From Escherichia coli (lineage in GTDB: Bacteria > Pseudomonadota > Gammaproteobacteria > Enterobacterales > Enterobacteriaceae), in the NCBI RefSeq assembly GCF_003334315.1, contig NZ_QOWR01000072.1: a DNA stretch of 18,167 nucleotides. The stretch is one strand, 5' to 3'. The notes under the pieces are model-generated. The model searched no databases. It was not told the DNA's origin and saw only the letters and a list, made by a program, of their open reading frames with translations. Every line of letters starts with the position of its first letter. Position 1 is the first letter of the stretch. The position numbers and the translations under genes are program-made. Positions 1,641-17,651 of the stretch are shown piece after piece.

Positions 1641-3716
1641 TCAATTAACCCCAAGCGCCTTAAACACGGCATCGACGGGGTCTGCATAAAAGCTGATCTG
1701 GAATTTTGAGAACAACTCAGCAGGAACCGTTGGAATATCTGAGGCTGAGGCCATTGGGAGCAAAATACGCTTTGCGCCACTGTCCATAGCTAACTGAAGA
1801 CTGCCTGCAAGATCTTGAACAGGATTTACAACACCACCTAAAGTCATCTCACCCAAAACAACCATCTGCTCTTGAATCGGTCGGTTCATCAGAATTGAAC
1901 AGAACGCAATTAATGCAGCGAGCGATGACTTTGTACTTGGCCCCGTATTGTGGAGCTCAACAACATGGAGGTGATACTCATGATCAGAAAACTTCGCCGA
2001 CGCACTGATTCTATTCAGGTTACCTTTGAAATAATCAAAGCCAACACGCACAGCTTCTTTCGCTGCGGTATTCGAACCAAGGCCAGACACTGAGTGTTTA
2101 CCAGAACCAGCCATCATCTGGGTTTCATAGCGATATAACCCAAGCTGCCCAGTGCTTCCCTGAGTAACTAAGTGTACGACACCAGCGCGAGGTAAGCCCT
2201 CAGGAATTAGCTTGCTGCCACCTTGTTCCGGTACATTGACGAAGAACTCTTCTAATGACTCGTTATCGATGTAGCTAAAGTGCACATCAAAAAATTCCAT
2301 TCCGCCAAGCTTTTTCAATTGCTCTTTGACCCTACGTCTAGTTTCCAGCGCATAGGTCAGGCAGGCTCTTACATCATCTTTTGTGTACTGTGCGTCGGGG
2401 TGTAGTAGCTTTAACAAGCCCGAAACCGTTCTGCGTACAGCAATGACATCACGCTGATTAAGGTTATTACCGAGTTTGAAGAACTTATCGATCGCATCCG
2501 CAAAACTTCTTTTGCGCATTTCACGCATGTATTCAGCAAGATAGTCTGTGATTAATCCGTAACTATTGGTGAAAAACTCAGGACGCATCTTCGGTATTTC
2601 CCATCCAGGAATATAGGAATGGAAACGGTCAAAAAAAGCAGTGTCAATCATGGCATCAGGAAAAGGTGCCAATAGATGACTGGTCTTCACCAGTGTCTCA
2701 ACGCTTTGATTGATGTTACCGACGAATACCATGGAAGCCTTCGCTTCGATTGAATCACGACCACGGGCAAAAGACCCTGACGCCATATAATCTTTCATTA
2801 TTTGGACGCCGTCTTTGTCTTTAAAGTTAATACCCGCTACTTCATCAAAGGCGACAACATCCCACATTCCGACCAACCCAACTTGGCGCGAGCTCATGTT
2901 ATAGAACAAGTTCGCCACAGTTGTTTGTCCACCCGAGATAAGCAATGAGTTTGGTGAGCACTCTTTGTAAACATGGCTTTTACCTGTCCCTCTTGGTCCG
3001 AGCTCACAAACGTTGTAGTTGTTTTCAACGAATGGGATCATGCGAGTAATAAGATGCCACTTCACCCGATGCTCTAAATTGGTTGGCTCCATACCCACGG
3101 AACGAAGCAACACATCCATCCACTGATCGGTACTAAAATGTCTTCTGGTTGAAAACACCTCATCCATGTTCATGGACGGCATTTGTATCGGTTTTAAACT
3201 CATAATGGAGAAAGGTGATGTCTTCTGACCTTCCTCAAAGAAATACTGCACGGTAATAATGCACCAGATACCGCCAGTTAATAATTTTTCGTTGTCTTGT
3301 ACTATTTTGGTCGGTACAAGGGCATCCTTGATACCCAGGTTCGACAACGCAGCTTCATAGACGTCTTTTTTCTGATTGAGCTTAACGCTTACTTTGTCGA
3401 TGATTTTAAACATGCCGCGTTCACGGATCAGTGACTTCACTTTCTCCGCTTCATCTGGTCGGACATAGTTCTCAGCCAAGATTTTTTTCACATTATCAAG
3501 GCCTTGCATTACAACTTCGTCGTCATCGGACGCACAATACATGCCTAGTAAATACTCAAGCACATAGACAGGGACGTTAGCGCCTTCTTTCAATTGCTTT
3601 GTCAGATCTTTTCGAACGACACGTCCTTTAAAATATTGGTTGAGCAATGCGTCTAAATCGGCGCTTTGCATCTGATTTTTTTCGTCTTTATGATCTTGTG
3701 AAAAATCAGTTGTCAT
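1641..3716 (-). CDS. brxL: BrxL, Lon-like protease-domain protein of type 1 BREX
   Basis: 691 aa and last gene of the BREX block. Walker A GPRGTGKS at 2976-2999 (minus strand). C-terminal region resembles the Lon proteolytic domain (..HNTGPSTKSS.., ..DSGAKRILLP..). A GGAG-type SD lies 16 bp after the pglZ stop. Confidence 0.9.
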   Translation of the reverse strand: MTTDFSQDHKDEKNQMQSADLDALLNQYFKGRVVRKDLTKQLKEGANVPVYVLEYLLGMYCASDDDEVVMQGLDNVKKILAENYVRPDEAEKVKSLIRERGMFKIIDKVSVKLNQKKDVYEAALSNLGIKDALVPTKIVQDNEKLLTGGIWCIITVQYFFEEGQKTSPFSIMSLKPIQMPSMNMDEVFSTRRHFSTDQWMDVLLRSVGMEPTNLEHRVKWHLITRMIPFVENNYNVCELGPRGTGKSHVYKECSPNSLLISGGQTTVANLFYNMSSRQVGLVGMWDVVAFDEVAGINFKDKDGVQIMKDYMASGSFARGRDSIEAKASMVFVGNINQSVETLVKTSHLLAPFPDAMIDTAFFDRFHSYIPGWEIPKMRPEFFTNSYGLITDYLAEYMREMRKRSFADAIDKFFKLGNNLNQRDVIAVRRTVSGLLKLLHPDAQYTKDDVRACLTYALETRRRVKEQLKKLGGMEFFDVHFSYIDNESLEEFFVNVPEQGGSKLIPEGLPRAGVVHLVTQGSTGQLGLYRYETQMMAGSGKHSVSGLGSNTAAKEAVRVGFDYFKGNLNRISASAKFSDHEYHLHVVELHNTGPSTKSSLAALIAFCSILMNRPIQEQMVVLGEMTLGGVVNPVQDLAGSLQLAMDSGAKRILLPMASASDIPTVPAELFSKFQISFYADPVDAVFKALGVN

Positions 3717-3732
3717 GTTTCACCTCAGCGCC

Positions 3733-16715: not shown

Positions 16716-16724
16716 AAATTCATC

Positions 16725-17651
16725 TCACGATTCGCTATATCCAGGAGCGAGTGCAGCATTGTCAACGCCGTATAGTGCTTCTGGATTTTTAAGTGCTAAA
16801 TGGAACTCTCGCCCATTGCTCTTGCTATTCTTTGAACAATCGATATTCCATAAACGCAGTAAATATCCAGCGAACGCAGCTCTTATCTCTACACGCAACC
16901 TATTGTTTTCCATTGCGTAGTCTATCAATACAGCTTCTGGATGTGCTAGTTTTGGATGAGGTATCAGCTCTAGTTCAACGATTCGGTTCCATTGCTTATC
17001 CCACTGAAGAGTCTCAACTTCGTCGTTAACCTCATCTTCTAACAACTCAACTTCACTTATTCTGGTTAACACAAAATCCCTAAATTCTCTATGCTTTCTA
17101 TCGAATGCTCGGACATGCCATCTCAAGCCATTGTCAATCAAGGTATGAGGAACTATTTGCCTGCTCCCATGACCACTCGACAATGAGGTGTACTCAATAT
17201 TAATCACCGCGCGTTTATGTATGGCTTCACTAATCGCCGCTACCACTTCCAATTTCGGCTTATTGAGATGAAATGGTGCTTCACAAGCCATAGGTGGCCT
17301 AACCTTGCCAAGAAAGCCATCACCGAACCCTTGGCTTATCGTCGCAAGCGTTCGAACAATGTCATAATCAAACAACGGCTGGAATGTGCTCGTCTTCAAG
17401 TGCACTCTGCGCTTTTCGTCATACATAACGTTGTTAGGAGCCAACGCTTTGTACCGCGCAAAATCTTGTGTTGCCACAGACGGCGCTACGCTAAAGCGCT
17501 CGGTTAAATAACTCCGCCCAGCTTCACCTTTAAATAACAAAGTGAAATCAATATGAGCGAGTCGTTCTCTCTGTGCTTGGCTAAGCTCTTCAAGTCCAGT
17601 GTTGTCTTGCACTGTCAACCTCTCAATCCATTTGGGACAAGCCCTAATCAT
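16725..17651 (-). CDS. brxR: WYL-domain transcriptional regulator (BrxR/CapW-like) with N-terminal winged HTH
   Basis: 308 aa. N-terminal HTH-like segment (RSYLTERFSVAPSVATQDFARYK) and a central WYL-like signature (RQIVPHTLIDNGLRWHVRAFDRKHREFRDFVLTRI; WHV in place of WYL). Immediately upstream of brxA on the same strand, as BrxR is in described BREX loci. Confidence 0.72.
   Translation of the reverse strand: MIRACPKWIERLTVQDNTGLEELSQAQRERLAHIDFTLLFKGEAGRSYLTERFSVAPSVATQDFARYKALAPNNVMYDEKRRVHLKTSTFQPLFDYDIVRTLATISQGFGDGFLGKVRPPMACEAPFHLNKPKLEVVAAISEAIHKRAVINIEYTSLSSGHGSRQIVPHTLIDNGLRWHVRAFDRKHREFRDFVLTRISEVELLEDEVNDEVETLQWDKQWNRIVELELIPHPKLAHPEAVLIDYAMENNRLRVEIRAAFAGYLLRLWNIDCSKNSKSNGREFHLALKNPEALYGVDNAALAPGYSES

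What the first reader, a model, noticed from the sequence alone, without database searches (positions are those of the whole stretch)
1641..17651. Complete type 1 BREX operon with an upstream WYL-type regulator, organised as one translationally coupled unit
Eight co-oriented genes run from brxR to brxL with a 13-bp overlap (brxA/brxB), a 1-nt TAATG overlap (pglX/pglZ) and 9-18 bp gaps elsewhere. I verified Walker A motifs in brxC and brxL and the motif I and NPPY motifs in pglX. All core genes are full-length with no internal stops, so the system looks functional even though the flanking IS is degenerate.
Basis: partly seen in the sequence, partly recalled or inferred. Interest (0 to 1): 0.5.

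Follow-up and report, generated by a model that had tools for sequence, protein, structure and literature searches.

The report
Known BREX plus BrxU defence island
This is a chromosomal E. coli copy of the already characterised pEFER phage-defence island, which combines a regulator, a complete type 1 BREX system and an embedded restriction enzyme for modified DNA, so it is real and intact but ordinary.

Summary
The eight co-oriented minus-strand genes exist at the stated coordinates. Profile searches assign seven of them to BrxR (WYL), BrxA, BrxB, BrxC, PglX, PglZ type A and BrxL. [quoted passage not shown]

Window 1567-17862 is 99.4% identical, without gaps, to the Escherichia fergusonii pEFER defence island. 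Published work on pEFER shows GCTAAT N6-adenine methylation, BREX and BrxU acting on different phages, and BrxR repressing PbrxR through R-BOX operators. The PglX protein here is identical to pEFER's.

Corrections:
- brxB more likely starts at ATG 16119, giving a 4-bp ATGA overlap rather than 13 bp.
- brxR more likely starts at GTG 17612.
- pEFER has an internal PbrxA promoter, so "one coupled unit" is an inference.

Local twists:
- The window is a recombinant: a chromosomal-lineage backbone carrying a pEFER-type pglX-pglZ segment.
- R-BOX1 carries one SNP.
- pEFER's brxS and brxT are absent.
- An IS-truncated stub of a TrlF-family ATPase gene follows brxL.

Verdict: already known, low interest.

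The parts
17714..17722 (-). Predicted extended -10 element of PbrxR (TGATACTAT), immediately upstream of R-BOX1
   Evidence: Read from the sequence. This stretch is identical to pEFER, where a -10 box was predicted upstream of IR1 and the region drove strong BrxR-repressible lacZ expression (PMC9122601). The simple promoter scan did not list it because it matches only 8 of 12 positions.
17687..17713 (-). R-BOX1, the BrxR operator (11-bp inverted repeats IR1 and IR2 with a 5-bp spacer): GAAACCTACTG-AAAAA-CAGTAGATTGC
   Evidence: Maps to pEFER 12820-12846, which BrxR binds in EMSA with Kd 13 nM (PMC9122601). The window has one G-to-A change in IR2 at 17691 relative to pEFER.
16725..17651 (-). 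brxR, a WYL-domain transcriptional repressor. The longest ORF is 308 aa. The likely true start is GTG at 17612, giving 295 aa.
   Evidence: Pfam WYL 2.8e-13. PADLOC WYL hit. 294/295 identical to PDB 7QFZ, the pEFER BrxR. Shine-Dalgarno energies favour GTG 17612.
16895..16921 (-). R-BOX2, a second BrxR-related inverted repeat inside brxR and upstream of PbrxA
   Evidence: Identical to pEFER 13612-13638. Its role in repressing PbrxA is hypothesised, not shown, in PMC9122601.
16116..16715 (-). brxA (DUF1819), a DNA-binding BREX protein, 199 aa
   Evidence: PADLOC BrxA 5.2e-109. PDB 7ZGE (pEFER BrxA) 4.9e-128. Three aa differences from pEFER.
15535..16128 (-). brxB (DUF1788). The longest ORF starts at GTG 16128. 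The likely start is ATG 16119 (194 aa), giving an ATGA overlap with brxA.
   Evidence: PADLOC BrxB 1.5e-70, with the profile aligning from residue 4. RefSeq annotates the 585-nt version. PDB 9NV3 chain A 7.6e-78.
11839..15516 (-). brxC, a P-loop ATPase, 1225 aa, Walker A GFFGSGKS at residue 74
   Evidence: NCBIfam BREX_BrxC 1222 bits against a cutoff of 400. PADLOC BrxC E=0. PDB 9ZDX E=0. Motif.
10059..11822 (-). brxU, a GmrSD-family type IV (modification-dependent) restriction enzyme, 587 aa. It is not a BREX component.
   Evidence: 584/587 identical to PDB 7P9K/7P9M, the pEFER BrxU. Pfam GmrSD_N 8.3e-34 and a weak GmrSD_C hit at 0.013. PADLOC HEC-05 2.3e-233. RLFDS (38-42), DGQQR (98-102) and DHIYP (474-478) are intact.
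6390..10043 (-). pglX, the BREX-1 N6-adenine methyltransferase and specificity factor, 1217 aa. The protein is identical to pEFER PglX (WP_001095615.1).
   Evidence: NCBIfam BREX_1_MTaseX 1519 bits against a cutoff of 500. Same RefSeq protein accession in E. coli PSS-11 and in pEFER. Zero aa differences from pEFER. DPACGSG at 310 and NPPY at 510.
7125..8499 (-). Replaceable specificity cassette inside pglX (about residues 521-1010: distal methyltransferase part, target recognition domain and spacer helices). GC is low, 37-42%.
   Evidence: This segment is replaced by unrelated sequence in otherwise collinear islands L003 and L004. Protein identity falls to 17-50% there and is 90-100% outside it. 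GC dip. The full cassette occurs only in 3 E. fergusonii plasmids and 2 E. coli chromosomes.
3733..6390 (-). pglZ, BREX-1 PglZ type A (alkaline-phosphatase-fold protein), 885 aa
   Evidence: TIGR02687 940 bits against a cutoff of 270. PADLOC PglZ E=0. PDB 9NV3 chain C 2.9e-292.
1641..3716 (-). brxL, a Lon-related AAA+ BREX protein, 691 aa, Walker A GPRGTGKS at residue 240
   Evidence: TIGR02653 1347 bits against a cutoff of 628. PDB 8EMC E=0. Motif.
1620..1637 (-). Weak hairpin followed by a T-rich tract just after the brxL stop. It may be a leaky terminator.
   Evidence: Listed by the terminator scan. The local fold is only -8.7 kcal/mol. Not tested.
1400..1597 (-). Stub (59 native codons) of a TrlF-family AAA-like ATPase gene that once followed brxL, cut at 1419 by an IS3-family element
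   Evidence: NCBIfam TrlF_fam_ATP 1e-10 on residues 5-59. The 883-aa full-length gene lies 43 nt after brxL in a Klebsiella grimontii plasmid, with the first 59 aa identical.
201..1419 (+). Degenerate ISKpn34-like IS3-family element that forms the left boundary of the island remnant. It is context, not part of the system.
   Evidence: RefSeq pseudogene with an internal stop. Rfam IS1222_FSE 128 bits at 500-617. 92-94% identical, in inverted orientation, to the 'brxS' IS remnant upstream of brxR in pEFER.

Best explanation
The window carries a chromosomal E. coli copy of the pEFER-type phage-defence island, which holds two defence systems and one regulator in a single co-oriented gene array. 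BrxR, a WYL-domain dimeric repressor, binds the R-BOX1 inverted repeat just downstream of the PbrxR -10 element and keeps the array at a low level. Transcription from PbrxR, with a weaker PbrxA inside brxR, reads through brxA-brxB-brxC-brxU-pglX-pglZ-brxL. Short gaps (9-18 nt, each with a Shine-Dalgarno match) and two overlaps (ATGA, TAATG) probably balance translation. PglX, together with other BREX proteins, methylates the fifth base of GCTAAT on host DNA. Unmethylated GCTAAT sites on incoming phage DNA lead to a block of phage replication that requires the BREX set. BrxU acts separately. It is an NTP-dependent HNH nuclease that cleaves DNA carrying modified cytosines, so it covers phages that escape BREX through DNA modification. 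Shown here: gene content, integrity, near-identity to pEFER, and presence of the operators. Shown in the literature for the near-identical pEFER island: the methylation motif, the two defence activities, and BrxR repression. Inferred: that these properties transfer to this copy, that there is one long transcript, and that translation is coupled.
For: All seven BREX and BrxR assignments are far above curated cutoffs. BrxU is 584/587 identical to the 7P9K chain and BrxR 294/295 identical to the 7QFZ chain. Window 1567-17862 aligns to pEFER without gaps, with 99 mismatches in 16,296 nt. PglX has 0 aa changes, and the other proteins have 1-14. The BrxU residues shown to be essential (S42, Q101, R102, D474, H475; PMC8565348) are all retained. 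R-BOX1 and R-BOX2 sit at the expected positions. Published experiments on pEFER show GCTAAT m6A dependent on pglX, BREX-sensitive and BrxU-sensitive phage classes, and BrxU sufficient on its own (PMC8565348). They also show PbrxR and PbrxA activity, BrxR repression, EMSA binding to R-BOX1, and no promoter before pglZ (PMC9122601). Shine-Dalgarno matches precede every gene except brxA and the ATG-17651 version of brxR.
Against: Nothing here measures expression, methylation or defence in this host. R-BOX1 has a G-to-A change in IR2, the higher-affinity half-site in pEFER, so repression could be weaker. The pEFER upstream ORFs brxS and brxT are missing or displaced. One sentence in PMC9122601 calls them necessary for host methylation, although no supporting data were found in the main text of the cited paper PMC8565348, which calls their function unclear. 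BrxC differs from pEFER at 14 residues. The brxA start has only a weak Shine-Dalgarno match (-2.8 kcal/mol).
Confidence: 0.93

Rival explanations
1. This is a plain eight-gene type 1 BREX operon in which the extra 587-aa gene is a BREX accessory subunit.
For: The gene sits inside the array between brxC and pglX, with 15-16 nt gaps on both sides. It shares the operon's orientation and GC content.
Against: The gene is 584/587 identical to BrxU and carries the GmrSD_N domain. In pEFER, BrxU alone expressed from pBAD gave the same phage resistance as the island lacking pglX, and BREX methylation persisted without brxU (PMC8565348). Canonical type 1 BREX has six genes and no BrxU.
Confidence: 0.03
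2. This is a silent or decaying remnant. IS activity on both flanks, loss of brxS, brxT and trlF, and the operator SNP would mean the chromosomal copy is no longer an active defence system.
For: Both flanks are IS-scarred: IS1 and ISKpn34-like remnants on the left, IS3 on the right. The trlF gene after brxL is truncated. The upstream region diverges from pEFER beyond 17862. PMC9122601 remarks that brxS and brxT are needed for methylation.
Against: All eight ORFs are intact, with no indels against pEFER across 16.3 kb. PglX is identical at protein level despite 6 silent nucleotide changes, and most nucleotide differences elsewhere are synonymous, for example 42 nt against 14 aa in brxC and 23 nt against 3 aa in brxL. 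That pattern indicates purifying selection. The promoter -10 element and both R-BOXes are retained. 'brxS' is itself just a truncated IS3-family transposase.
Confidence: 0.07
3. The array is several independently transcribed modules rather than one coupled unit: brxR alone, brxA-C, brxU, and pglX-pglZ-brxL.
For: pEFER has an internal PbrxA. Other BREX loci have promoters before pglZ, as cited in PMC9122601. The brxU-flanking intergenic regions were not tested in the reporter assays as far as the text read shows. brxU is functionally autonomous.
Against: No promoter activity was found before pglZ in pEFER. No minus-strand sigma-70 consensus match falls in any of the 15-18 nt intergenic gaps; the minus-strand matches that were listed all lie inside coding sequence, and the total count is below the shuffled expectation (17 found against 26.9 expected). 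The gaps are too short to hold a terminator and a promoter together. The terminator-like hits inside genes are no more frequent than in shuffles (21 against 18.3).
Confidence: 0.15

Closest known systems
[quoted passage not shown] 2021, PMC8565348; Picton et al. 2022, PMC9122601)
   Same: The gene order and all junctions are the same. The two are 99.4% identical over 16,296 nt without gaps. PglX is identical, BrxR differs at 1 aa, BrxU at 3, PglZ at 2, BrxL at 3, BrxA at 3, BrxB at 1 and BrxC at 14. R-BOX2 is identical and R-BOX1 is present.
   Different: This copy is chromosomal in E. coli rather than on an IncR plasmid. R-BOX1 IR2 has one SNP. The brxS and brxT ORFs are not upstream, because homology ends at 17862. 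The left boundary lies 148 bp further out and preserves a longer trlF stub. The SNP pattern shows that only pglX-pglZ is of the pEFER lineage, while brxR-brxU belongs to a chromosomal lineage.
Chromosomal island of E. coli NMBU_W05E18 and ESBL 15 (NZ_CP042878.1, NZ_CP041678.1)
   Same: The flanks are the same: IS1 remnant, ISKpn34-like pseudogene and trlF stub on one side, IS3 on the other. The brxR-brxU half is nearly identical, with 2 SNPs across 10001-18167.
   Different: It carries a different PglX allele (1229 aa, WP_023063793.1) with an unrelated central cassette, and a divergent pglZ 3' half. A different methylation motif is therefore expected but unknown.
Canonical six-gene type 1 BREX (Bacillus cereus H3081.97, E. 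coli HS; Goldfarb et al. 2015 as cited in PMC8565348)
   Same: It has the brxA-brxB-brxC-pglX-pglZ-brxL core in the same order, and m6A at position 5 of a 6-bp non-palindromic site.
   Different: Those loci lack BrxR and the embedded BrxU. Their motifs differ (TAGGAG and GGTAAG against GCTAAT).
Salmonella D23580/LT2 BREX with embedded PARIS (Went et al. 2024, PMC11341690)
   Same: It is a type 1 BREX with a second defence system nested between BREX genes. Its PglX is a close structural homologue (PDB 8C45, E=0).
   Different: The nested system is PARIS (ariAB), not a GmrSD enzyme. There is no BrxR. The motif is GATCAG.

Membership tests
Type 1 BREX | [quoted passage not shown] | tested here: met
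   PADLOC hits for every gene. NCBIfam BREX_BrxC, BREX_1_MTaseX, PglZ type A (TIGR02687) and BrxL (TIGR02653) are all far above curated cutoffs. Order and integrity.
Type 1 BREX | PglX is a gamma-class N6-adenine methyltransferase with a SAM-binding motif I and an NPPY catalytic motif | tested here: met
   DPACGSG at residue 310 and NPPY at residue 510. E=0 to PglX structures 8C45, 8ZEK and 9EWZ.
Type 1 BREX | PglX-dependent m6A at a non-palindromic 6-bp motif in host DNA, and exclusion of phages carrying unmethylated motifs | not testable with these tools
   This was shown by PacBio and EOP assays for pEFER, whose PglX protein is identical (GCTAAT; PMC8565348). It has not been measured for this host.
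BrxR family (WYL-domain repressors of defence islands) | Winged-HTH plus WYL plus C-terminal dimerisation architecture | tested here: met
   Pfam WYL at residues 135-203. 294/295 identical to the BrxR crystal structure 7QFZ. Homologous to the BrxR(Acinetobacter) structure 7T8K and the CapW structures 7TB5, 7TB6 and 9C5G.
BrxR family (WYL-domain repressors of defence islands) | A cognate inverted-repeat operator overlapping its own promoter | tested here: met
   R-BOX1 is at 17687-17713, directly after the predicted -10 element. Of its 27 positions, 26 match the EMSA-validated pEFER site. Binding to the variant IR2 has not been measured.
GmrSD-family type IV restriction enzymes (BrxU) | N-terminal DUF262 NTPase domain with RLFDS and DGQQR motifs | tested here: met
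   Pfam GmrSD_N 8.3e-34. RLFDS at 38-42 and DGQQR at 98-102.
GmrSD-family type IV restriction enzymes (BrxU) | C-terminal DUF1524 HNH nuclease domain with a DHIYP motif | tested here: met
   The Pfam GmrSD_C hit is weak on its own (E=0.013). However, DHIYP is present at 474-478, and the whole chain is 584/587 identical to the solved BrxU 7P9K.
GmrSD-family type IV restriction enzymes (BrxU) | Cleavage of DNA with modified cytosines, dependent on NTP and metal | not testable with these tools
   Shown biochemically for pEFER BrxU (PMC8565348). The three substitutions here (D63H, K141Q, H269Y) lie outside the motifs that were mutated.
TrlF-family AAA-like ATPase (Ppl-related) | A full-length protein of about 880-940 aa matching NF045780 above its cutoff | tested here: not met
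   Only residues 5-59 match, at 41 bits against a cutoff of 350. The gene is truncated by an IS at 1419. It is a pseudogene stub and not a working part.

The most novel reading that the evidence does not exclude
BREX specificity may be exchanged as a cassette between plasmid and chromosomal copies of the same island. The SNP pattern suggests that a chromosomal island of the NMBU_W05E18 type replaced its pglX-pglZ segment (about 4000-10000) with the pEFER plasmid allele by homologous recombination through the conserved flanks. That would switch its methylation and defence motif to GCTAAT. The central part of pglX is itself built from smaller modules that are shared separately among plasmids. 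This would be natural evidence for horizontal reprogramming of BREX targets, beyond phase variation.
Probability: 0.55. Interest if true: 0.3.

Novelty: already known. Interest (0 to 1): 0.15.

Why it matters
It matters little as a discovery. The island, its methylation motif, its regulator and operators, and the structures of BrxR, BrxA and BrxU have all been published for a 99.4% identical copy. Three things have modest value. The annotation of the eighth gene is corrected to BrxU, a type IV restriction enzyme. The plasmid-borne island is shown to occur also in E. coli chromosomes (44 of 5,426 complete genomes carry at least 80% of the window). And the window gives a clear natural example of a pglX specificity cassette recombined onto a different backbone, which bears on how BREX targets diversify and on predicting phage susceptibility of clinical strains.

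Tried and rejected
- **Promoter scan:** the consensus scan did not list PbrxR, which matches only 8 of 12 positions but has an extended TG. It found fewer promoter-like sites than shuffled controls, so it cannot resolve the transcription units.
- **Terminator scan:** hits were at the chance level. Only the weak hairpin at 1620-1637 is sensibly placed.
- **Rfam and tRNA:** Rfam at gathering threshold found only the IS3-family frameshift element at 500-617. No tRNA or tmRNA was found, so there is no attachment-site evidence.
- **NCBIfam gaps:** there were no hits for BrxR, BrxA, BrxB or BrxU. PADLOC, Pfam and PDB searches identified them instead.
- **brxS and brxT as real components:** I considered this. 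'brxS' is a truncated IS3-family transposase and 'brxT' an unsupported ORF. A literature search found no follow-up data.
- **Zinc-ribbon ORF at 17917-18075:** I considered it as an upstream operon member. It lies beyond the homology boundary and is probably a fragment of a neighbouring island gene split by IS3. The reconstruction needed a 4-bp adjustment, so it is inconclusive.
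Full report
**Observation**

The window holds eight co-oriented ORFs on the minus strand between 1641 and 17651, with no internal stops.
- gaps of 9, 18, 16, 15 and 16 nt
- a TAATG one-base overlap between pglX and pglZ
- a 13-nt overlap between brxA and brxB, if brxB is taken from its first possible start, GTG 16128

The left flank is a degenerate IS. RefSeq marks an ISKpn34-family IS3-like pseudogene with an internal stop, and Rfam finds its frameshift element at 500-617.

**Identity of the genes**

PADLOC and NCBIfam assign the following:

| Coordinates | Assignment | Score |
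|---|---|---|
| 16116-16715 | BrxA | PADLOC 5e-109 |
| 15535-16128 | BrxB | PADLOC 1.5e-70 |
| 11839-15516 | BrxC | NCBIfam 1222 bits, cutoff 400 |
| 6390-10043 | BREX-1 PglX | NCBIfam 1519 bits, cutoff 500 |
| 3733-6390 | PglZ type A | NCBIfam 940 bits, cutoff 270 |
| 1641-3716 | BrxL | NCBIfam 1347 bits, cutoff 628 |

16725-17651 has a WYL domain. It is 294/295 identical to the crystallised BrxR of pEFER, PDB 7QFZ.

It has a GmrSD N-terminal domain and hits PADLOC HEC-05. [quoted passage not shown] The residues shown to be essential in BrxU (S42, Q101, R102, D474, H475; PMC8565348) are all conserved. The three substitutions (D63H, K141Q, H269Y) lie elsewhere.

**Provenance**

- The window is 100% identical to the chromosomes of E. 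coli PSS-11 and LR-28.
- 44 of 5,426 complete E. coli genomes carry at least 80% of it.
- At least 55 PLSDB plasmids from Escherichia, Salmonella and Klebsiella also carry at least 80% of it.
- Window 1567-17862 aligns without any gap to Escherichia fergusonii plasmid pEFER, with 99 mismatches in 16,296 nt.
- Gene order is the same in both: brxR-brxA-brxB-brxC-brxU-pglX-pglZ-brxL.
- PglX is the same RefSeq protein in both records (WP_001095615.1).

**What is already known about this island**

For pEFER, Picton et al. 2021 (PMC8565348) showed the following:
- pglX-dependent N6-methyladenine at the fifth base of GCTAAT
- two phage classes, one restricted by BREX and one by BrxU
- BrxU is sufficient on its own
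- BrxU cleaves DNA with modified cytosines, using NTPs and metals, and shifts from dimer to monomer on ATP binding

Picton et al. 2022 (PMC9122601) showed:
- a strong promoter upstream of brxR and a weaker one upstream of brxA, both repressed by BrxR
- no promoter activity before pglZ
- BrxR binding to an 11-5-11 inverted repeat (R-BOX1, pEFER 12820-12846), with a related R-BOX2 at 13612-13638
- brxR knock-outs could not be obtained, which suggests toxicity of the derepressed island

Using window = 30533 minus the pEFER coordinate, R-BOX1 is at 17687-17713 and R-BOX2 at 16895-16921. R-BOX2 is identical to pEFER. R-BOX1 has one G-to-A change in IR2, at 17691.

**Mechanism**

The best-supported account runs as follows. 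BrxR represses PbrxR, whose extended -10 element TGATACTAT lies at 17714-17722, and probably also PbrxA. A long transcript covers brxA to brxL. PglX, with its BREX partners, methylates GCTAAT on host DNA, and BREX blocks replication of DNA with unmethylated sites. BrxU separately destroys phage DNA with modified cytosines, which would otherwise evade BREX.

- *Demonstrated here:* gene content, integrity, and the presence of the operators.
- *Demonstrated in the literature on a near-identical copy:* the activities themselves.
- *Inferred:* that these properties transfer to this host, that there is a single long transcript, and that translation is coupled.

Shine-Dalgarno complementarity is reasonable for brxB, brxC, brxU, pglX, pglZ and brxL (-5.8 to -10.2 kcal/mol) and weak for brxA (-2.8).

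- **brxB start.** RefSeq annotates the ATG at 16119, and the BrxB profile aligns from residue 4 of the long ORF. This gives a 4-bp ATGA overlap rather than 13 bp.
- **brxR start.** GTG at 17612 has a good Shine-Dalgarno match (-6.5 against -2.1 kcal/mol for ATG 17651). It is also the start used for the functional, crystallised protein (start codon at pEFER 12,921).
- **"One translationally coupled unit".** This is plausible but untested, and an internal promoter exists in pEFER.

**Differences from pEFER**

1. *Mosaicism.*

| Window region | SNPs vs pEFER | SNPs vs chromosomal relative NMBU_W05E18 (L004) |
|---|---|---|
| 10001-17862 | 67 | 2 |
| 4001-10000 | 8 | at least 181, plus an unalignable 1.35-kb block |
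| 1567-4000 (brxL) | 24 | 24 |

This copy therefore looks like a chromosomal-lineage backbone that received a pEFER-type pglX-pglZ segment by recombination.

2. *The pglX cassette.* The central part of pglX (nt 7125-8499, about residues 521-1010, GC 37-42%) behaves as a replaceable cassette. Three alleles of 1217, 1209 and 1229 aa sit on otherwise 97-99% identical islands. The region corresponds to the target recognition domain and spacer helices mapped in Salmonella PglX (PMC11341690). The full pEFER-type cassette is rare: three E. fergusonii plasmids and two E. coli chromosomes. Sub-segments of it occur in other alleles.

3. *brxS and brxT.* Homology to pEFER stops at 17862, so pEFER's 'brxS' (a truncated IS3-family transposase) and 'brxT' are not upstream here. 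A related IS remnant lies instead on the other flank, inverted (770-1419). One sentence in PMC9122601 calls brxS and brxT necessary for methylation, but I found no supporting data in the main text of either paper. This remains a caveat on function.

4. *A truncated gene after brxL.* The 65-codon ORF at 1400-1597, 43 nt after brxL, is the first 59 codons of a TrlF-family AAA-like ATPase (related to the anti-phage protein Ppl), cut by the IS at 1419. The intact 883-aa gene follows brxL in one Klebsiella grimontii plasmid. Plasmid copies such as pEFER cut the same gene even earlier, at window 1567.

**Rivals**

- *BrxU as a BREX subunit.* This is refuted by the published genetics.
- *A decaying, silent remnant.* This is unlikely. 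There are no indels over 16.3 kb, and the excess of synonymous changes (brxC 42 nt against 14 aa, brxL 23 against 3, pglX 6 against 0) indicates purifying selection.
- *A modular multi-promoter layout.* This cannot be excluded. It is disfavoured by the 15-18 nt gaps, by the negative pglZ reporter in pEFER, and by the absence of minus-strand consensus promoter matches in the intergenic gaps.

**Verdict**

The system is already known and characterised. Interest is low. The only mildly new element is the natural recombinant structure, which suggests exchange of PglX specificity cassettes between plasmid and chromosomal copies.

Noticed in passing
window 1400-1597 (-), and L005 20001-22652: The 65-aa 'hypothetical protein' 43 nt downstream of brxL is the first 59 codons of a TrlF-family AAA-like ATPase (related to the anti-phage protein Ppl), truncated at 1419 by an IS3-family element. 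The intact 883-aa gene follows brxL in K. grimontii plasmid NZ_CP055413.1, next to mobH and traD. Plasmid copies of the island truncate it independently at window 1567.
   Followed up: yes
window 4000-10000 compared with 10000-17862: The SNP pattern is mosaic. The pglX-pglZ segment is nearly identical to pEFER (8 SNPs). The brxR-brxU half is nearly identical to a chromosomal lineage, NMBU_W05E18 (2 SNPs), and carries 67 SNPs against pEFER. brxL differs equally from both (24 SNPs each).
   Followed up: yes
window 7125-8499 (pglX residues about 521-1010): This is a low-GC (37-42%) block that is swapped for unrelated sequence in otherwise collinear islands. Three PglX alleles were seen. The full pEFER-type block occurs in only 5 records, and its sub-segment 8044-8490 is shared separately by other alleles, which suggests finer modular shuffling.
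   Followed up: partly
window 17691 (within R-BOX1 IR2, 17687-17697): There is a G-to-A change relative to the EMSA-validated pEFER operator, in the half-site that contributed most to BrxR affinity. It is shared with the chromosomal lineage. The effect on repression is unknown.
   Followed up: partly
window 17863-18090, and 770-1419: pEFER's upstream ORFs brxS and brxT are absent from their position here. A 92-94% identical copy of the 'brxS' IS3-family remnant lies on the opposite flank in inverted orientation, which hints at IS-mediated rearrangement or mobilisation of the island.
   Followed up: partly
window 17917-18075 (-), with the IS3 left end at 18091: The 'putative zinc ribbon protein' mini-ORF between the island boundary and IS3 may be the C-terminal piece of a gene split by the IS3 insertion. 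Joining the two flanks gives a 198-aa ORF only after a 4-bp adjustment, so this is not settled.
   Followed up: partly
window 500-617 (+): Rfam IS1222_FSE ribosomal frameshift element (128 bits) is retained inside the degenerate ISKpn34-like transposase pseudogene.
   Followed up: no
L006 8001-8369 (E. coli TL20 chromosome): A 369-bp fragment 100% identical to window 7319-7687 (the pglX specificity region) survives alone between two IS1 copies and is annotated as a hypothetical protein. It is a relic of a deleted island.
   Followed up: partly
window 1440, 6379, 7146 (+) and 2206, 7989, 8284 (-): The window itself contains six GCTAAT sites, three per strand, where about 4.4 per strand would be expected. 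The island is therefore a substrate for its own methyltransferase and shows no sign of motif avoidance.
   Followed up: no
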